Notes: a model not told the origin generated them from the letters alone. Shown: positions 5,116-64,000, numbered from the stretch's first letter. The stretch is DNA of 64,000 bases from Haliotis cracherodii (GCF_022045235.1 NW_027266308.1:39556001-39620000), one strand, 5' to 3'. Translations and numbers: made by a program.

Positions 5116-6042
5116 AAGTCTTTTATGTCCTTATATATTCCACAGGTGACTTTCATTCCCAAGGACTGGTATCAATATCGTTCTACATGATCTGTACAGG
5201 TTCTGCAATAATGATCAGAGACATACACTCAGTTTAAAGATGGGATTAAAGGCATGGGGTACAATGAGCATGCCATATCTTGCCAGGGCATATATCAATA
5301 ATCATGATCTGAGACCTTGTTCTTTGTGTAGAATCTACACAGGTTTGTGGTGAAGGTAATTAAATCAGCACCGGTACTTGAATGATATTACTTTAGATTG
5401 AACAATGAACGAGTAGAAAGTACGTCGTCGAGTATTTCAGTTTGGATTCCGAAATTTTGGTTTTGAAGAAAGAAACACATTTGGATTAAGGAAGGGAATT
5501 AATGAATGTCAACTTCTTTATTGTGAGGAACACAACGTTAACACACCAATAATGCATTCATCTTCGGTTATAACGAACTTCAAAAGCCAGCGTTATTAAA
5601 TGGGGAATTCGCTTCACCCGACTTCGAAATATATATATATAACACATATCATCAGACGGGTTGGTGCCATTGGAAACAACAATTGAAGGAAACAAGATGC
5701 ATGTATATCTTTGTAAGTATAAATAAATAAAGTTATGAGAAATAATCCTTTTATTACACGTAGTGAAAATGTTATAATAGCATAGCTTTTCCATACACTT
5801 TTCCAGTACGTGTAGCTACCAATATTTGCCTTTTCCTAGAATTATACAATACAGAATAGGAATCATTTATAGAACAAAATATACTGTCCAAATAGCATCT
5901 GAATATATATTAAAAATGAAGACATTTTTATTCTTTTCAAGCATAAATAGCGAGGGACATGGAAGCAAATATTGAACGTAGTATAAACTAATGTGATGTC
6001 TTACGAAGTTTGCCTGATACAAATAACTTTAAAGGATGATGG

Positions 6043-6275
6043 TCCCGTCGGGATTCCAGGTTAGAATTGGTCCCCAGCAACGTATGCTTGTCGTAGAAGG
6101 CGATTAAATGGATCGATTGGTCAGGCTTGGTGACTTGGTTGTCATCGTACCCCAACGGCGCGAGACACTGCACACAATATCATTGACCGGTCTGTCTGCC
6201 AGCCTCGATTATATACAGGCCGCCGTCACGTAGCAGGAATATTGATCATTGTGGCGTTAAACAACAAAGAAAACA
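6043..6275 (+). mobile_element. Divergent, probably older subfamily of family A (also ~9823-9985, 35220-35419 minus, 54020-54215 minus, 55833-56085, 63785-63850)
   Basis: Head variant GGGATTCCAGGTTAGAATTGGTCCCCAGCAAC with the same body and tail. Confidence 0.8.
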
Positions 6276-7302
6276 TAACAGGATTACAAAATGTACATGT
6301 GAATTGTTCTTCTCAATGCAAGGACAGACGTTGAAGAAATCAAGTGACTCCTATCTACCAAATGAATATAGATAAAGGTTTATTTGTATTATATGTAGTC
6401 GACGCGTCTAATTAATATATATAATCCCTTGGCAGGTAACAAAACATAATCTAGACACAACCCGAGAACGTTAACGTCTCAGTAATGTCTCTTGTAAATT
6501 TAGAGCTTTTACACAGTTTTTCAGCATGCGAGGCAGTTTCAGATGTACCTCATGTCCATTTCAGCAGGTTTTATTTTCGCTTTAGTTTAGTTTCCATCTG
6601 TTACACATGTAATAGACGTTTGTCAAATAAGGTATCAAGATGTGATCACGTTGAGTACATGTATACCGCCATGACAAAAGTCACGATATTCACACTTTCC
6701 ATGGCTGTCAGCGACACCAATTTTATAATGCTTTTCGCCACATATTCAAAGTTAAAAGTAAGTGGTCACACACATCCTAATTGATAACTGAAAATGATAA
6801 TTATGAGATTATAGCTTTGACGGTTTGATCAGTATTCGAAAAACAACTACCGTTTTGCAAAGGAGAACCAGGGACGTTCTTTTGAATACATTAAAGGATC
6901 AAAGAGAACGTCAATCCTGAAATGTTCTTTCTGTTGTTGTTTTGTATTTATCGATGGCAAACGAAAGCACTTCTCCATAACTTGTTTTGAGAATTTTAGT
7001 TATAAATTTTGTTATGTGAAAAGATTACCGATTTAAACAAATTATGAAAAATCTGCGGCCAAATTTCAAACCACACCACTATGCATCTCCAAAGAAAATA
7101 ACAGAATAGAGGAAAAAAGTGCTTTTCCCTTTGAGTATGTTTAGCTTTGATTCACGTCAGGGTGAAATGCATATTATCAGCAGCTAAAAGTACTGATACA
7201 AGGTTGCGAGGTCCCGCTTCGCCTCGCTTCGCCTCGCTTTATATTTAACACCAGTTCTTTTAAATCCTGATAGCATACTACCACCTATCCTGCTTCTGTT
7301 AT

Positions 7303-9227
7303 TCATGCATTTCCACATTCCTTGTTGTAGTACAAGGTGAACTTGTGGTTCGATGTCGAGTAGTTCTCTTGGCAAGTATATCCTGCAGTGAGGCCGACAT
7401 TTGTCGAGGCAGATCCCCCGGTTGACAGTCGGATGACGTAGAAATGCGGTCCTGCACCACTCACGTCATACGTGACGCGATTAGAGCTCTGGACCAGTGG
7501 AACAGTGGAGTCGTTAATCTGCTTCCATGGCTCACTGAACACCGTGATGGTTATATCATCTCCGCTGTCACTCGTTGCCTCGACGAGGATCTCCTTACTC
7601 CAGTCTGGCAGATCTATACCAAAAGCCGGACTGGATTCATTGGAGACGGTGATTTGGTCTTTAGTCCGGTTGAGCCTCAGATGGAGCAGGTGGTCTTCCA
7701 CATCACAAACTTCGATCCCAACCTCTTGGAACGCTCTAGCAAAAGGTTCTCCTGGTTGGCCCATGTCATAAGCTGCCTGCATCACATCACACGCTCCGCT
7801 GATAAAGTTGGTCATGGGTTGCCAGTACATCTTATTAGCATGGAGGAACACCCGGAAGACTTCCACAGGATTCAGGCCATATTCGTGTGCTAAGAGGTAG
7901 AACACCTTATTGTATATACCGCTCGTCGTGTGTGGAGACATTCTGTTTGAAAATTTATCCATGTGGGAAATCGATCTTCCATCCTTCTCAGGGTTGGCAA
8001 AGAACCGCATGGGCCGCCTGTACATAATGTCAGCACCAACCTGCCAGTCAGTAGCATTGTTGTACAATTCTGCCATTTCTCCAGTCATGTCCGAAAAGGC
8101 TTCGTTGAGTCCTCCTGACTGTCCAATGTAGATGAGGCCGGAATGTTGCTCGGTGAAACCATGGGCTATTTCATGGGCAGCAATATCAAGGGAAACTAGT
8201 GGATAGATAAATCTTCGCCTGCCATCACCAAAGGAAACGTTGTGGCCGTTCCAGAAGGCATTCATGACGTTTCGTGAAAAATGAACCCTGAGTGTGAGTC
8301 CTCCTCTGATTGGGTCTGTGTCGTACCACTCCTTGAACATCTTTACGATTTGAGTGCCATAGTACAGAGCATCTATAGCAGGTGAATATGCACCATTTAT
8401 ACTGTCATTAAGATTCCCAGCACAATCGAAACGTGCCACCCCCGTTGATCTCTCTATGGCTGAGTTGTTCATGTCAATCACTTTAACATGCTCATTTTCC
8501 AAATAGCATATTCCATTCTCTTGTCTTAAATCCAAACATCTATGAGTACCATCATAATGGATGATGCCTATTTTCTTATTTCCGCCGATCATTTCTTCAT
8601 CCTCCCTATCAAAGCAAGTCTCCAAGCTGTCAAAATAGGTCATAACTTCCCGAGTCCTCGTGTCGATGATACCCCTAGGACGTTTCTGAACATCATCAGT
8701 CTCAATTAAATATTCAACAATGGCAACATGATGGGCCACATCATGTTCGTCTGTGTATACCTCATACGCAATACTCCTACCTTTTATATCCCCCGTCCTA
8801 CTTTCGTCACCAGCATAAGCAATCAATATAGCAAACAACTCGTCTTCAGTGATGCTTCCTCTAGACTCGTCAACGTCTTCCTCAATGTTATTAACATAAT
8901 CTCCAGTAGCATCAACTACCACCCCGGACTCTTCAGTCATGGTCAATGTCACTGATGCGCCAAACACTTCTTCACCATGGTACCTTTCTTTCATTTTGAC
9001 CTGTCGAGTTCCTTGCACAGTGTTGGCTTCCTCCGTTTCCTGGAACGATTCCCCACCAGCTAGCTGGAACACCTCCCTCATGTTGCGGTTCCTGGTTGTC
9101 TCCGTGTCCCGGGCTGACCTCCTTCTGGTGTACCCTGGTACAACTTCAGGGAGGCCTTCGAGGAGTACCTGCCTTGCATTGACCCTCTTGGCCGCCTCTA
9201 TGTGATGGACACATACCGACAACAACA
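7303..9227 (-). CDS. Exon 2 (main exon) of a secreted M4-family (thermolysin/pseudolysin-like) zinc metalloprotease: FTP- and PepSY-like propeptide, catalytic domain, and a C-terminal PPC-like extension
   Basis: Motifs HEIAH (8161-8175), GGLNEAFSD, NAFWNG, FGDG, YPLVSLDIAAHE, NGAYSP, DGRSI, HTTSGIYN and GGNKKIG are colinear with Pseudomonas LasB and Vibrio vibriolysin. The frame is uninterrupted up to TGA at 7303-7305. Splice acceptor TTTATTTACTTGCAG has its AG at 9229-9228 (phase 1). The TTG start at 9300 in the ORF track is intronic. Confidence 0.95.
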
Positions 9228-10446
9228 CTGCAAGTAAATAAACGATGTTTGAATCAGGTACAGTGTAACACAGTGAAATCTGAAAACTGAAAAAGGACAA
9301 GGTATCACGGGGACCATTTTGGACAACATCATTTGCATATTTAAAGAAAGAAACATCATTTGCATATTTTTAAGAAGGAAACATTTAAATATTGTAATAA
9401 AAAATACCAGATGTGTAATTACGATGTGATGTGTTTCACAATGTGCAGATTAGGGAGAACAACATGTCACAGCTTTTTTAACAGCATCGTATGACTACGT
9501 CTTTATCTTTGCACACCCTTGTGCCAGACAGTTTAGGTTCATAGCACCGCATGTTTGTAGATAGAGCTGACGTACTAGGACGCGGTAGTTATTATTATAT
9601 GCCACCTTGCTGACCACGATTATATGGTTATATCACACCAGGCAAACCAGTGGTTGAGAGTATGAGCATTGCTCAACGCCGATGAGATACAATGACGCCC
9701 GATCAGCCAGATCACACATTGTTTTGGTAACAGCCAATCTGTAATGTAGCCTTCCCTCGAACCCCCAACCCCAAACTCCCTCCCCACCCCCAACCCCCAC
9801 ACACCTCACCCTCCCTCTCCACTGGTGAGAATTCCAGGTTAGAATTGATTTTCAGCAAACCCTTGAGACGACCAAATGGATCGGGTGGTAAGGCTCGTAC
9901 ACAGACGGCGTGCATGATTGCTAACAATTTCAATCAGTGGATTGTCTGGTCCAGCCTCAATTATGTACATGCCATCATCATGTGGTTGGAATGTGAGTTC
10001 GCTTTACTTGTCACAAAAAAAAATCACATAAAATCCCTTTTGTCTCTTACCAAAAACTTTTCTGACACGACGTCCCCCTGGGTTACAGATAACTAAACTT
10101 CCCATATTTTTTGCCTGTAAATATTGATGTGAAATGTTACTAAAGGCATATCCATTTACAGCTTAACCAAAGAGGAAAGAAACTCTATTCCGGGACAAAG
10201 TAATTAAGTCCACCAGCAAGGTTCAGTAAGATATGAAACATTTTATGAACGCACCATCAGCTAAACATTCTCAACGTGCATTCCAGTCTTGCTTGTTAAA
10301 TCAAACATTGTGACATAACAACACTAGTAGCTTTTAAAGTAAGACGATAAATAGAATTTGTTCACGCGCCGTCACACACCAGAGTGAACAGAAAGCAAAA
10401 TCGCTAGTAATTATCTTGAAAGCTCGGTGGAGGTAACGATCCACAC

Positions 10447-10492
10447 CTACAATCCCTACTGCAACCAGTCTGTGTAAGCAATCTGTTAACAT
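10447..10492 (-). CDS. Exon 1 of the M4 protease (start of signal peptide, MLTDCLHRLVAVGIV)
   Basis: ATG at 10492-10490, 15 codons + 1 nt, donor TAG|GTGTGG. Splicing to 9227 gives MLTDCLHRLVAVGIVVLLSVCVHHIEA-AKRVN, a typical signal peptide. The paralogous copy at 2043-2088 differs by only 2 synonymous changes and one V/I change. Confidence 0.8.
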
Positions 10493-10528
10493 TGCAGACT
10501 TCGTGGCATGGGCGCAGATTCTATGCCA

Positions 10529-10537
10529 ATATATAAA
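10529..10537 (-). promoter_or_regulatory. Candidate TATA box of the M4 gene
   Basis: TTTATATAT on the minus strand about 40 nt upstream of the exon-1 ATG. It is absent from the paralog. Confidence 0.35.
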
Positions 10538-11383
10538 CCCCCTGATTAAAAGGATGGAAGTGTTGTCAAAACACAACCGAGGGCTAAAGATATTACATGT
10601 CGTTCAATCACCGTTACAGATCAAATTAGGATGCTGGTAATAGCTTTATAACCACAAGACTTCATTTCAGACCAGCAAATTGGGGACAAACTTAAAATCG
10701 ATTGAACAAACACTACTGCTCACTGTATATTTATCGTCTTAAGCCGTCTCTAAGAAGACAAAATCGATAAAATAAGTGCCCATTCACGACATCTCCGATA
10801 ATGAATTTTCACAACCCGTCTACATTGATACACAGTGAAGGCAATAAAGGGGGAAATGGTATGAAATATGAAGTAAGATTGTAAATTGAGGTTCTGAAAT
10901 TGAATCAGGTTACCTGAACTGTTTGAATTAGGCGTTGTGCACGAGATCTATCAGGTGTTATTTCTTGATATTTTAATTTTGAAGCTAGATTGGCTTTGAA
11001 ATTGTTAATTTGACAACCGTCACGCGAGGCATCGTTCCAGTTTCATAACGTGCGTAAAAGATCTTGTTTGCATGGGCATTCGCAAGTACAGATAAACAGA
11101 ATCGGCGTGAACACCCTTATACACTGGTAATTTTGATACAAACAAAAAGCTTGATTTAAACTGAGAAGAATCCCTAGTAAGATGGGTGACACCTGAAATC
11201 TAGACTCGCTTCATTATGATGATTGCATTACTGTAAGGGCTGAGCGGAAGGGAAATAATATGGTTCAGGGACTGTGAGACAGAATACACGTTTGTGAACA
11301 GAAGGTGTTCAACGAAAGCATCTATTCCATAATGAACATGGGACTGAGGTGGTGTGTGGAGCAGTGAACGTGGATGGCATGAT

Positions 11384-11385
<2 letters not shown>

Positions 11386-11458
<73 letters not shown>
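11386..11458. repeat. (CA)n microsatellite
   Basis: Direct observation. Confidence 0.98.
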
Positions 11459-11462
<4 letters not shown>

Positions 11463-43566: not shown

Positions 43567-44952
43567 TACTGAACCGCAAAAGAAACGTCACCCCAAGTAA
43601 CATTGCATGAAAAGTTTTCATTTAAATATCTGGGTAATGTTTTGTCAAAGTTTCTAAAATTTAACATTACCTTGTCCGGAAAAATGAAATTTGATGATAA
43701 AAAAACAAAGCAGATGACAATAAAACCGAACGCCAAACCGCATCATGGCAACGGCCATGGTAACCCGATGCACGTGAGTTCCGTGCAAATTGAAATGCGC
43801 ATGCGTTCCCTCATTTCTTGCCGTATTAAAATCCTTCCAGATCGGAAAACATTCATTCGTTATTGAATTGCTACCATATGCCAAGATTGACAAGAAATCA
43901 GCGACACCAAGCCCTTGGACGATTGCAAGCAGGACAAACCGCCCGGCAAGTAGTCAATGCATTTCATGTAAGGACCATATACCGGATCCAGAGACGGTAC
44001 CAGACCACCCAAACTACAGATGACCGACCACGTAGTGGAAGACCAAGGGTCACCACCCGACGTCAGGATCGTCAGATTGTGCGACAGCATCTTCAAGATC
44101 GCTTTGTTACTGCTGCGGAAACTACTCGACAGACCATGGGGACACACCGTGCCTCGACGATTGATGAGCAGACACATCCACTGTCTCAGGCCACACCGAG
44201 GACCCATTCTGACACCACGTTATCGCCGGGTCCGTCTTCAGTGGGCAACACAGCACCAGTATTGGCGCCACCAGCAGTGGAGAAGAGTTCCCTTCTCAGA
44301 CGAGAGCTGTTACTGTATCTCAACAGAAGATGGTAGAGAGAGTGTCTGGCTACGCCGTATAGAACGTTATTCGGATGCTTGTGTTGTTGAGAGAAACTCG
44401 TGGGCTGGTCCGAGCATCATGGTGTGGGGTGGAATTGATCTTGCACAGAGGGTCGGCCCTGTGGCCTTCCAGAAATTCGGTCCAGGGAGAGGCAATGGTG
44501 TCACAGCAGCTCGGTACATTGATCAAGTCTTGAGACCACACTCCATACCTCATTTGGCACCTGTGGGACGAGATTCAAAGTCGGCTGAATGGCGTCCGAC
44601 CCAGGCCGACAACTGCAGCTGAACTGCGTCAGGCATTCCTCAGAGTGTGGGCTTTAGTGCCTATGATATTGATAGTGGCCTTCATCAACCGCCTCATCCA
44701 TTCCATGTATCGACGTTGCACGGCAGTCATCAATGCACACGGCGGACACACGAGATACTGACTTGTGATGCAATTTTCTGAGACTAGTGTTGTGTTTCAC
44801 TTTACGAACATTTGACACTTTAATTTCAACCTTGATGATCAGTTTTGCCAAGTTTCATCTTTTTATTATGTCTCAAAGTATGTTTACAGTGTTTGGACAA
44901 ATAAGGTTCCTCATATATCTATCCATGGTGACGTTTCTTTTGCTGTTCAGTA
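43567..44952 (+). mobile_element. Tc1-family DNA transposon with frameshifted, partly deleted transposase (43878-44761)
   Basis: TIRs TACTGAAC(C/A)GCAAAAGAAACGTCACC at both ends with TA target duplication. Protein motifs MPRL..GRPRVTT (HTH), FSDES, MVWGGI and terminal GGHTRY*. Confidence 0.95.
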
Positions 44953-46899: not shown

Positions 46900-47625
46900 C
46901 AGACACAACCATAAAGGGAGACCAACACAGATGCACGTCACACAGGTACAACCATGCAGGGAGACAAGCACAAATGTAAGGAACACAGGCACAACCCTAC
47001 AGGGAGACCAGCACGGATGTGAGAAACACAGGCACAACCATACAGGGAGACCAGCACGGATGTGAGAAACACAGGCACAACCCTACAGGGAGACCAGCAC
47101 GGACGTGAGAAACACAGGCACAACCATACAGGGAGACCAGCACAGATGTGAGAAACACAGGCACAATCCTACAGGGAGACCATCACAGATGTGAGAAACA
47201 CAGGCACAACTCTACAGATAGACCATCACAGATGTGAGAAACACAGGCACAACCATACAGGGAGACCATCACAGATGTGAGAAACACAGGTAGAACCATA
47301 CAGGGAGACCAGTACATATGTGAGGAACACAGGCAGAACCACAAAGAGAGACCAGCACAGATGTGAGGAACACAGGCAGAACCACAAAGAGAGACCAGCA
47401 AATATGTGAGGAACACAGGTACAACCATACAGAGAGACCAGCACATATGTGAGAAACACAGGCACAACCCTACAGGGAGACCAGCACAGATGTGAGGAAC
47501 ACAGGTACAACCATACAGAGAGACCAGCACAGATGGGAGCAACACAGGCACAACCATACAGAGAGACCAGCACAGATGTGAGGAACACAGGCACAACCCT
47601 ACAGATAGACCAGCACAGATGTGAG
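46900..47625. repeat. 43-bp minisatellite, about 17 copies
   Basis: Unit AAACACAGGCACAACCATACAGGGAGACCAGCACAGATGTGAG. Confidence 0.95.
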
Positions 47626-47923
47626 GTAAACGCTTATATCACGGCCATCTGTGATCGACTCTGGACCAAGCGAACCAGTGGCTGAAAGCACGAACAATAA
47701 ACCAAGACTTCGGTTTACGATGACGTGCCAAAACCAATTCACAGAGCCTGGCCACCCGATTTCCATGTAAGCCATGGGGGCCTTTTCATGTGATTTCCAT
47801 TCAATGTATGGTAAAAAATAAATGTTCTGGGAAATATTTACGGGGAGACTTTCCTCCACATGAAGCCAACATGTGAGATATTATTATCTCAAATACAATT
47901 CAAACCACCTAACTCCCCCCCCC

Positions 47924-61092: not shown

Positions 61093-61159
61093 GTACGTGC
61101 CCTCAGCTATACCGCCATGTCACATACAAGGCCTCACAGCATGAAAAGACAGGTTTCCG

Positions 61160-61455
61160 TTTTCGGGAAATTTTCCGGACGCCTTCCTTTGGCAACCAGA
61201 AGGTTTCACTAGTAGCGGGATACCAACTTACAGTTTTCGGGAAACTTTCCAGACGCCTTCCTTTGGCAACCAGAAGGTTTCACTGGTAGCGGGATACCAA
61301 CTTACAGTTTTCGGGAAACTTTCCGGACGCCTTTCCTTTGGCAACGAGAAGATTTCACTGGTAGCGGGATACCAACTTACAGTTTTCGGGAAACTTTCCG
61401 GACGCCTTTCCTTTGGCAACCAGAAGGTTTCACTGGTAGCGGGATACCAACTTAC
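61160..61455. repeat. 74-75-bp tandem repeat, 4 copies
   Basis: Units start at 61160, 61234, 61308 and 61383. Confidence 0.95.
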
Positions 61456-64000
61456 ATCTCTTGCAACTTCTTACACTTTTTTACATTGGTCCAATGATGT
61501 CATGGCATGAGGTACATGGACGGCTAATTTTTTGTCTCCACCATGTCATCTGAAGAAGGGGGAACCATTCTGCCCCATAACATACATATCATACATCAGT
61601 ATTCTAAATACGGTCATATCATAATGAACATACATGTATGCATGCATCCATTCATACCAGTACGTACATGAACACGCATACACATACACACACACGTTCA
61701 CGCACATACACGCACGTTCGCACACACGCTCAGTAATCATCATGAAATTTCTGGACTAACGGTCTCCCAGTTAACGAGGGTTTACTATTTACAGATTGAA
61801 ACTCGTATTAGCCATACGCTTCCAATTTAGATTTATCTAAGAAATATTAAATTCAGTTAAAACATAACGATGTTGATATCATGCCAGACGTTCAAATATT
61901 TTGAACATTGATTTACTCTATTTCTCTTCAGGAAATCTTTTACAAATAACACATGGCTTCTTCTCTCGGAACAAAAACATTTTACTCTTTCTGACAGCAG
62001 TCACAATTGTTTACCTCAAAATCATTTGTTCCTTAAGAATTCAAACTCTTTAGCCACAACTATCTCCATAATTTGATTAAAATGCCCTGCCTTTCAATCA
62101 TGTTGCTCCAATTGTGTTTACTTTACTTTGTCCGTATATTCTAGGAATGCTCGGGTTGTAAATAACATTACATATTGACACGACGTCTCCATGGACACGA
62201 TGTGTGCACTGTCAGAGTGTGATTAATTTGTGCTTTTTAGAAGTCAATACTTAACGGAATCGCAATTGTATACTTTTCCTTGCAATGTGTTCACTCTTTC
62301 AAGCATCCAATACAGTGACGCTGTTCATGAAATACATATCTGTGTTACACTTCACAGGTTCAAGATAGCGACCACAACATAATGTAACCAAATTAGGCTT
62401 TTAATGTAGAAAACCTGCTTAATGTCTTGTGGTAGCCGTGTTTACGACTGGCTGAGCTTCGGGTTAGTAGCTTCGGAGCGCCAGACTTTCGATTTCTTGT
62501 GCGTTAAATGTCCAATCCAATTTCACTAGTTTGACAAGTTTGTTTCAAGTTAAAATATATATTCTATCCACGCTGGCGTTCTGGACATAATTCTTCAACT
62601 ATCTCCTTTTCCGTACTTCCAAACGATGTAATTTCATTAGAGATAATAACTTAATTATCACTTCAGCTGGAGCGGAAAAGTAAGTCAGTATTAGATTGGA
62701 TATTAAGAAACTCTAGAGATTTCCTGAAGACGTTTTCGACCAGATTTCATCTTCCACAAACCCCCCAAAGTAACATGTTTCGCCTACACTCAATAAAAAC
62801 ACACACGTTCGGCAGCGAAAATGTAATTGCCACAATATCTGACTTCTGGTATTAAGAATTTTTCATTCCATGTTTCTCGATTGTCATTTTTTTAAATCCC
62901 CAATCACGTTATGTTGTAAAAACGTGTTTCAGTTTAACAAATAACAGACTAAAGAAATCCATTGGAGTCACATTCAGCAAAAAATGATAATCATAAAAAG
63001 ATAAGTTTTACTGGGAAATATATTTGATTATTTCTACAACCCACACACGTGTCATACGATACTGAAATGACAATAATAAACTAGATTTCTCAAAACATGT
63101 TTAGAAAGGCGCTGGAGTATCAAGTAGTACACGTACAGCTAATTATATATGCTGTAATCACTACCAGGATGACAACTAATCATCTACATTTGCAATAATA
63201 ATTGTATTAATTACAGGATAATCAATGTTCTATTCGACGTTTGTAATAAAAAATGATGTTCGCGAAGTACTTGCAATTATTGGGAATTATCATTCTCTTC
63301 AGTTAAAATGCCACCACAGAACATCAGCCATGACATGACATGACATGACATGACATGACATGACAGTGTAATACTCGGAGGTGTTCCTCTAGCGAATTAT
63401 GGAACTATTATTGAAGGTGTTATTCGAGATAATAGGTCCCCAGAACTCCTACTTGAAAGGGCTGACTGAAATGACCAAGTGGTTATGATGTGTGAGCCTC
63501 ATGATATCAACCACTGGTTTGTTTGATGCAAACACAATGTTTGTGTTACAACCTTGATATAACTGTAGTATTGGTGACTACAGCATGCAAATGAGATGAT
63601 GAGTTTTTTAGGATTTAGAAGTGAGTATGGGTTTATGTAACATTTAGCAATATTACTTAAAACAATACATCACGTCGGAGGATATCACAAACGGGCTTTA
63701 CAGGTTGCATCCATTTGGGGAATCGAACCCGGGTCTTCGGCGTGACGAGCCAACGCTTTAACCACTAAGCTACCCCAAGGCCCCTCCGGGTTAGAATAGG
63801 TCCCCAACAACATTTGCTGGTCGTAAGTGACGAGTGGGCGCTTTGGTCAGAACGCTTTGATCAGAACAAGCGACCCAGTTGGGATTTACATCACTGTTAA
63901 CATTAATCTAGCTATATTATCGTCAGTTATCTGGGTCTTCTGCGTGACAAACCAACCACTAGTCATCTAATATATTCCGCACGTCTGACAACACATATTT

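What the first reader, a model, noticed from the sequence alone, without database searches (positions are those of the whole stretch)
7303..10492. Bacterial-type M4 (LasB/vibriolysin-like) protease integrated as a spliced gene in an animal genome
Seen: a complete pre-pro-M4 protease with HExxH (HEIAH), the third Zn ligand in NEAFSD, and the catalytic Tyr (GLIY), Arg (PMRFF) and His (PHTTSG) positions. It sits in SINE- and microsatellite-rich animal DNA, and its own intron contains a divergent family A SINE-like copy (~9823-9985), which argues against bacterial contamination. Established: M4 thermolysin-family enzymes are overwhelmingly prokaryotic. The stretch YPLVSLDIAAHEIAHGFTEQHSGLIYIGQSGGLNEAFSDM closely follows gammaproteobacterial pseudolysin/vibriolysin, which are secreted virulence and ECM-degrading enzymes. 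Inference: horizontal transfer from a (marine) proteobacterium. The bacterial body stayed as one 1925-nt exon and has a spliceosomal signal-peptide exon added. It could act in digestion, mucus, matrix remodelling or defence. I cannot check whether homologs are already annotated in molluscs.
Basis: partly seen in the sequence, partly recalled or inferred. Interest (0 to 1): 0.85.

Follow-up and report, generated by a model that had tools for sequence, protein, structure and literature searches.

The report
Bacterial-type protease family domesticated across molluscs
This abalone gene encodes a close relative of the secreted zinc proteases of Pseudomonas and Vibrio; it is one of 13 intact copies in the genome and has relatives in four mollusc classes, so it likely came from a bacterium before molluscs diversified and likely works as a secreted protein-digesting enzyme.

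Summary
The ORF is real: exon 7303-9227 (-) encodes an M4 zinc protease (Pfam M4 + M4_C) whose catalytic residues align with Pseudomonas LasB. A 31-nt exon at 19346-19376, across a 10.1-kb intron, gives a 651-aa product identical to the RefSeq 'elastase-like' protein of Haliotis cracherodii. The gene is already auto-annotated and is not abalone-specific. The genome holds 13 intact paralogues in two clusters, each with a phase-1 acceptor inside the signal peptide, and tested pairs show purifying selection. Named relatives occur in gastropods, bivalves, cephalopods and a chiton; unnamed animal-like relatives exist too. The bacterial layout is kept: propeptide, catalytic domain, and a PPC-like tail seen by fold only. 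Trees place the animal proteins with the proteobacterial LasB/vibriolysin subfamily (100/99), apart from other bacterial M4s, so ancient horizontal transfer is likely. Nesting inside Proteobacteria is not proven (AU p=0.35), and the donor and number of transfers are open. Function is untested; extracellular digestion is my best guess. Nine literature searches found no description of this transfer.

The parts
19346..19376 (-). Coding exon 1 (31 nt; first 10 residues of the signal peptide plus one base), followed by a GTGAGT donor, phase 1
   Evidence: join with exon 2 is identical to RefSeq XP_071079671.1 (P0121); 9 of 10 residues shared with H. rufescens P0001. Junction not seen directly in reads.
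19418..19425 (-). TATA-like TATATATT about 50 nt upstream of the ATG (candidate promoter, untested)
   Evidence: read from the sequence
9228..19345 (-). Spliceosomal GT-AG intron, 10,118 nt, with dispersed repeats, microsatellites and a mariner-like remnant
9895..9992 (.). Diverged copy of a dispersed (SINE-like) repeat inside the intron
   Evidence: 14 further alignments elsewhere in the window at 70-88% identity; SINE identity itself not tested
7303..9227 (-). Coding exon 2 (1925 nt): rest of signal peptide, propeptide, M4 catalytic domain, PPC-like domain, stop
   Evidence: covered by contigs of 4 of 4 runs guessed to be RNA
8600..9192 (-). Propeptide (about residues 23-220; FTP/PepSY fold) with a basic RRRSAR site at residues 45-50
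   Evidence: Foldseek match to vibriolysin MCP-02 propeptide 3nqz_A, E=2.5e-11, TM(target) 0.83; phmmer to 3nqy_A E=9e-6; boundaries approximate
7714..8562 (-). M4 catalytic domain (Pfam residues 233-515): H362, E363, H366 (8175-8161), Y377 (8130), E386 (8103), R418 (8007), H443 (7932)
   Evidence: Foldseek to 3nqx E=1.1e-23, TM(target) 0.81
7371..7671 (-). C-terminal beta-sandwich, predicted diverged PPC (pre-peptidase C-terminal) domain, about residues 530-630
   Evidence: model pLDDT 83-93; Foldseek to a PPC domain 5sv5 E=1.4e-4 and collagen-binding domains; ESM Atlas top hits PF04151 at 0.90/0.90/0.89 (lead level); no Pfam or BLAST match
5821..7302 (-). Probable 3' UTR, at least 1.2-1.5 kb, unspliced; AATAAA at 6575, 6384, 5932, 5755
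   Evidence: single contigs run 6050-9224 (X1), 5821-9227 (X4), 5821-9220 (X6) (RNA status is a guess)

Best explanation
This is an abalone nuclear gene for an M4 zinc protease of the LasB/vibriolysin type, one of 13 intact copies, likely inherited from a bacterium-to-animal transfer that predates the split of the mollusc classes and likely acting as a secreted enzyme that digests extracellular protein. Shown: two-exon model identical to a RefSeq protein, intact zinc and catalytic residues, family in four mollusc classes, grouping with the LasB subfamily. Inferred from the family: the signal peptide (about residues 1-22) routes it to the ER; the FTP/PepSY propeptide chaperones and inhibits the enzyme; it is removed by self-cleavage near residues 213-220, perhaps helped by a host convertase at RRRSAR; zinc held by H362/H366/E386 activates water with E363 as base, Y377/H443 stabilise the intermediate and R418 binds substrate; the PPC-like tail would tether it to insoluble protein. 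Role (guess, about 0.45): breakdown of food, microbial or mucus protein at gut or secretory surfaces. Transfer itself about 0.85.
For: Splice model equals P0121. LasB/MCP-02 are the best solved relatives, E 1e-86 to 1e-68, against 1e-28 for thermolysin; the fold of all three domains matches vibriolysin parts. 13 of 13 full-length paralogues keep HExxH, E-x-x-S-D, Y, R and H and have a phase-1 YAG acceptor 26-32 nt before the predicted cleavage residue. dN/dS 0.11-0.46 in 7 of 9 paralogue pairs, 2 saturated. Careful tree: animals + LasB-like bacteria 100/99 on a long branch (0.72) against 6 other bacterial M4s; molluscs one group 91/86; window gene with abalone paralogues, then caenogastropods, bivalves, chiton + cephalopods. 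The N-terminal LasB-type cysteine pair is in 53 of 53 animal and LasB-like rows and 0 of 6 outgroup rows. Preproenzyme mechanism and nutrient role of bacterial M4s: PMC10017501 section 4.3 part 1.
Against: AU test does not reject LasB-like bacteria as one clade without the animals (p=0.35), so sisterhood rather than nesting is possible and no donor can be named; the Legionella ProA sister group (97/90) may be long-branch attraction. FastTree put animal-like groups as a grade at the base when rooted on Bacillus. The catalytic-only tree split off 7 animal-like rows into the proteobacterial core. No activity, tissue or proteomic data. This paralogue has Ser where LasB and 11 of 13 paralogues have Asp two residues before the catalytic His, which may lower activity. 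dN/dS for this paralogue itself was not measurable. The model is low-confidence around the maturation site (block means 38-51). The splice junction was not listed among the joints shown.
Confidence: 0.7

Rival explanations
1. Same enzyme and origin, but its job is remodelling the animal's own matrix (hatching, larval settlement, shell or periostracum, wound repair) or attacking microbes, not digestion.
For: Predicted PPC-like tail resembles collagen-binding domains; paralogues have expanded in tandem and some carry Thr-rich linkers, as secreted surface proteins often do; kept in herbivores, filter feeders and predators alike.
Against: No expression or substrate data either way; bacterial M4s are broad-specificity nutrient enzymes.
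Confidence: 0.4
2. More than one transfer: molluscs (plus a probable annelid group) from one event, other animal-like sequences such as P0027/P0048/P0389 from another.
For: Catalytic-only tree places 7 animal-like rows inside the proteobacterial core, apart from molluscs; all-animal clade has only 84/55; P0048 and P0225 keep recognisable PPC domains whereas the mollusc one is beyond Pfam.
Against: With propeptide included all 31 animal-like rows form one group and 28 of them a 99/99 group; they share an A-R/K-R-V/I-D/N type start of the propeptide.
Confidence: 0.3
3. Vertical inheritance from an early eukaryote with many losses, or transfer from animals to bacteria.
For: AU p=0.35 allows animals as sister to all LasB-like bacteria; my searches listed only the best 120-150 rows, so absence from other eukaryotes is not shown; many animal-like relatives are unnamed.
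Against: Animals sit inside bacterial M4 diversity with one subfamily (100/99; cysteine pair); the catalytic region is intron-free in 13 of 13 paralogues while the genome is intron- and repeat-rich; the PPC-type tail is the vibriolysin layout; the only named eukaryote hits are molluscs and one gregarine transcriptome.
Confidence: 0.1
4. Bacterial contamination or mis-assembly.
For: Single long exon with about 45-50% identity to bacterial catalytic domains.
Against: Lies in contig C45 at 39.56 Mb among repeats; orthologues at 98% and 91% in two other Haliotis assemblies; contigs from three studies bridge ORF and 3' flank; gene tree follows mollusc groups.
Confidence: 0.01

Closest known systems
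RefSeq 'elastase-like' XP_071079671.1 (Haliotis cracherodii) and XP_046369928.2 (H. rufescens)
   Same: The first is identical over 651 aa to the corrected splice model; the second is 98% identical.
   Different: Automatic names only; I found no paper on origin or function.
Pseudolysin/LasB (P. aeruginosa), vibriolysin MCP-02 (Pseudoalteromonas), ProA (Legionella); peptidase family M4
   Same: Pre-pro layout, zinc and catalytic residues, both disulfide positions of LasB aligned, 41-43% identity in the structural alignment of the mature domain; PPC-type tail as in vibriolysins (predicted).
   Different: Signal peptide split by a spliceosomal intron; basic convertase-like site in the propeptide; extra cysteines at 215/241 seen only in mollusc rows (5 and 12 of 17; 0 of 42 others) and at 629/648; 8 N-glycosylation sequons; PPC diverged beyond Pfam; Asp to Ser next to the catalytic His in this paralogue.
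Reported horizontal transfers into animals: Archivesica clam (PMC7826175), centipede venom genes (PMC7864903), ascidian rusticalin (PMC6339383)
   Same: Bacterial-type gene fixed in an animal genome.
   Different: The clam cases are recent and mostly mobile-element domains (passages read); this one is a phylum-wide, expanded enzyme family. The other two papers were seen as search listings only.

Membership tests
Peptidase family M4 (thermolysin family) | Peptidase_M4 and Peptidase_M4_C domains above cut-off | tested here: met
   103.7 and 99.9 bits vs cut-offs 22.4 and 24.4
Peptidase family M4 (thermolysin family) | HExxH plus third zinc ligand Glu about 20 residues downstream (NExxSD) | tested here: met
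   HEIAH 362-366, E386
Peptidase family M4 (thermolysin family) | Catalytic Tyr, Arg and His conserved | tested here: met
   Y377, R418, H443 align with LasB residues; their roles are recalled, not from a call
Peptidase family M4 (thermolysin family) | Two-domain thermolysin fold | tested here: met
   predicted model, TM(target) 0.79-0.82 to LasB/MCP-02
Peptidase family M4 (thermolysin family) | Signal peptide and FTP/PepSY propeptide | tested here: met
   propeptide by fold (3nqz_A) and phmmer; Pfam FTP below cut-off; signal peptide judged by eye, no predictor run
Peptidase family M4 (thermolysin family) | Zinc-dependent endopeptidase activity and self-maturation | not testable with these tools
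   needs protein
LasB/vibriolysin subfamily | Groups with LasB-like sequences apart from other M4s | tested here: met
   100/99; 99
LasB/vibriolysin subfamily | N-terminal disulfide cysteine pair of the mature enzyme | tested here: met
   C251/C279; 53 of 53 ingroup, 0 of 6 outgroup rows
LasB/vibriolysin subfamily | C-terminal PPC domain (vibriolysin type) | tested here: inconclusive
   fold and language-model similarity but no Pfam or BLAST match
Horizontally acquired animal gene | Integrated in host chromosome with host gene structure | tested here: met
Horizontally acquired animal gene | Nested within the donor clade with statistical support | tested here: inconclusive
   inside bacterial M4 diversity yes; inside Proteobacterial LasB clade in best tree and LasB bacteria one group in 0 of 200 bootstrap trees, but AU p=0.35
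Horizontally acquired animal gene | Patchy distribution among eukaryotes | tested here: inconclusive
   named hits only molluscs plus one gregarine transcriptome; many unnamed relatives; lists cut at 120-150 rows

The most novel reading that the evidence does not exclude
A single transfer of a vibriolysin-type protease from a proteobacterium into an ancestor of molluscs and annelids (or an even older animal) founded an undescribed animal protease family that gained one signal-peptide intron, split into at least three mollusc lineages, is still expanding in tandem (13 copies in abalone), and mirrors the mucus- and matrix-degrading enzymes that Vibrio pathogens use against these same hosts.
Probability: 0.45. 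Interest if true: 0.7.

Novelty: new variant of a known kind. Interest (0 to 1): 0.5.

Why it matters
M4 proteases are treated as microbial enzymes and virulence factors. An intact, selected, multi-copy LasB-type family across Mollusca would be a very old functional bacterium-to-animal transfer in a phylum where a 2020 paper said none had been reported before it (PMC7826175, passage). It adds an unstudied protease class to shellfish physiology, it means 'vibriolysin/elastase' hits in mollusc transcriptomes or proteomes cannot be assumed to be bacterial, and it raises a testable question: how hosts with their own M4 enzymes control them while facing Vibrio M4s such as VemA (PMC9785129, abstract). 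Interest is tempered because the genes are already auto-annotated, the enzyme chemistry is textbook, and no function is shown.

Tried and rejected
No RNA holder on record was listed: 19 of 24 runs hold the exon, 14 guessed RNA; 5 further runs held none of its words, which says nothing on tissue. In one search the 19346/9227 joint was not among the 15 joints shown (640 not shown); one contig (X4 record 17) stops matching at 9227 with 24 unplaced letters, a weak hint only. P0122's start is uninformative. Naming the non-mollusc relatives: 30 proteins looked up and a profile search gave only one named non-mollusc cluster, a Siedleckia nematoides transcriptome (P0238); reading it as host polychaete contamination rests on my recall of that parasite's host. 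BLAST of the C-terminal domain against a PPC-bearing relative found nothing. Trees: one search used 456 of 478 sequences (2 without domain hit, 20 too short); one search used 100 picked rows; searches used 59 rows after dropping long rows (L095, L099, L168, P0265) and thinning for run time. Literature: nine searches answered plus one search returned no paper describing M4 proteases encoded by molluscs; several were too loose to be informative. Passages searched in PMC10192322, PMC7826175, PMC8476170 did not mention them; supplements (e.g. the 173-candidate HGT table of PMC7826175) were not read and could list this family. A review on peptidase origins was not held and a recalled id gave an unrelated paper. 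Subscription journals and MEROPS were not searchable. Earlier scan findings: none.

Full report
Observation. The minus strand carries an open frame of 688 codons at 7303-9369 in DNA of about 41% GC full of microsatellites and repeats. It scores on Peptidase_M4 (E=1.5e-29) and M4_C (1.9e-28), weakly on FTP. The best solved relatives are Pseudomonas pro-elastase (E=3e-86 over residues 56-507 of the query), MCP-02 vibriolysin and ProA; thermolysin-type enzymes are far weaker, about 1e-28. The repeat at 9895-9992 has 14 further alignments in the window.

Gene model. However, the nearest database proteins, H. rufescens XP_046369928.2 (98%) and H. cracherodii XP_071079671.1, start with a peptide encoded at 19376-19346, followed by a GTGAGT donor in phase 1. 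That join gives 651 aa identical to the H. cracherodii protein, with a 10,118-nt intron; the window is therefore most likely black abalone DNA (inference). A TATA-like element lies about 50 nt upstream. Contigs of four runs guessed to be RNA, from three studies, cover the exon and 1.2-1.5 kb of 3' flank without a break; one stops matching exactly at 9227. The junction itself was not displayed.

Anatomy. Residues 1-22 look like a signal peptide (by eye); 23 to about 220 form the propeptide (fold match to the MCP-02 propeptide, TM 0.83) with a basic RRRSAR site; 233-515 are the catalytic domain (H362, E363, H366, Y377, E386, R418, H443); about 530-630 form a beta-sandwich. The AlphaFold model (pLDDT 80.8, pTM 0.87; poor near the maturation site) matches MCP-02 and LasB at TM about 0.8, and the tail matches PPC and collagen-binding domains at E about 1e-4. 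ESM Atlas also points to PF04151 at lead level; Pfam and BLAST do not. So the vibriolysin layout appears complete. Animal-side additions are the intron, 8 N-glycosylation sequons and extra cysteines. One deviation: Ser replaces the Asp two residues before the catalytic His, kept in 11 of 13 paralogues.

Family in this genome. Two searches agree on 13 full-length copies, 7 on contig C45 (one 55 kb from this gene) and 6 within 65 kb on C34, plus one broken fragment on C12 (lower bounds). All 13 are single-exon over pro-, catalytic and tail regions, keep the catalytic set, and have a phase-1 YAG acceptor 26-32 nt before the predicted cleavage residue. dN/dS is 0.11-0.46 in 7 of 9 pairs; the two pairs involving this gene are saturated.

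Distribution. Named relatives: Haliotis, Pomacea, Batillaria, Nucella, Aplysia, Physella; Sinanodonta, Tegillarca, Mercenaria, Ruditapes, Pecten, Pinctada, Ylistrum; Octopus, Argonauta; the chiton Liolophura. All outrank bacteria except the most divergent ones. Further unnamed multi-copy relatives on megabase contigs look animal; the only named member of that group is from a Siedleckia nematoides transcriptome, which I read as host-annelid material from recall. No other named eukaryote appeared, but lists were cut at 120-150 rows, so absence elsewhere is not shown. Among bacteria, strong matches (E at most 1e-50) were in 13 of 401 genomes of the phylum of a Shewanella, 2 of 301 of the phylum of a Holophagae genome and 2 of 201 of the phylum of a Bdellovibrio, centres included; other M4s score 1e-35 or weaker.

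Phylogeny. FastTree on 456 rows gave a 74-row group holding all named molluscs (94) but placed animal-like groups basally when rooted on Bacillus. With LG+C20, the catalytic-only tree (100 rows) and the careful pro+catalytic tree (59 rows, 447 columns) both join animals with LasB-like bacteria (99; 100/99) apart from other bacterial M4s. The LasB-type cysteine pair is in 53 of 53 of these rows and 0 of 6 outgroup rows. In one search molluscs form one group (91/86) with three deep lineages, and the lineage of this gene follows mollusc groups. All 31 animal-like rows form one weak group (84/55), sister to Legionella ProA-like proteins (97/90, possibly long-branch attraction), inside Proteobacteria. 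Against this: the AU test does not reject LasB-like bacteria as their own clade (p=0.35), and split 7 animal-like rows away. So: origin from within bacterial M4 diversity is well supported; donor, direction inside the subfamily and number of events are open.

Mechanism. From the family (PMC10017501, section 4.3 part 1 read): pre-pro-enzyme, propeptide as chaperone and inhibitor, self-processing after export, broad zinc-dependent endopeptidase activity used for nutrition. I infer the same here, with ER secretion. Residue roles and LasB numbering beyond that text are recalled. The biological role is untested; digestion of extracellular protein is my best guess (about 0.45), matrix remodelling or defence the rival (about 0.4).

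Novelty. The gene is already auto-annotated and the enzyme family is textbook. Ten answered searches found no paper on mollusc-encoded M4 proteases or their origin; the library lacks most subscription journals, and supplements and MEROPS were not seen. PMC7826175 (passages) states that no HGT had been reported in Mollusca before it. Verdict: real, probably an ancient and apparently undescribed transfer, new variant of a known kind, interest 0.5.

Noticed in passing
L013 (G000:C34:20726392-20730264), L004-L012: Paralogues of the second lineage carry Thr-rich linkers between propeptide and mature enzyme; in L013 it is a long tandem array of a 9-residue unit (frame 892 aa).
   Followed up: no
L014 (G000:C12:51784045-51787425): Isolated broken M4 copy: Thr-rich repeat followed by a catalytic fragment that leaves frame before HExxH.
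   Followed up: partly
G000:C45:39.12-39.15 Mb and C34:20.66-20.69 Mb: Recent tandem duplications: copies 97-99% identical in protein, still dN/dS 0.11-0.19.
   Followed up: partly
window 13574-14008 (-): Frame ending in a mariner-like transposase C-terminus inside the long intron (motif recognised from recall; no Pfam hit).
   Followed up: partly
window 43830-44622 (+): Frameshifted Tc1/Tc3-like transposase remnant (weak HTH_Tnp_Tc3_2 hit).
   Followed up: partly
window 19670-19800: tRNA-like SINE copy about 300 nt upstream of exon 1, very highly represented in the laid runs.
   Followed up: no
P0027, P0048, P0389, P0225: Unnamed animal-like M4s that keep clearly recognisable bacterial PPC domains and short branches; best handles on the donor and possibly a second transfer.
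   Followed up: partly
P0226 (Octopus), P0261 (Ylistrum): A third, deep mollusc M4 lineage for which no abalone copy was found.
   Followed up: partly
window 47183-47638 and 61145-61510: Tandem-repeat frames (Cys/Leu/Val-rich and GNQKVSLVAGY-type units), probably satellites rather than genes.
   Followed up: no
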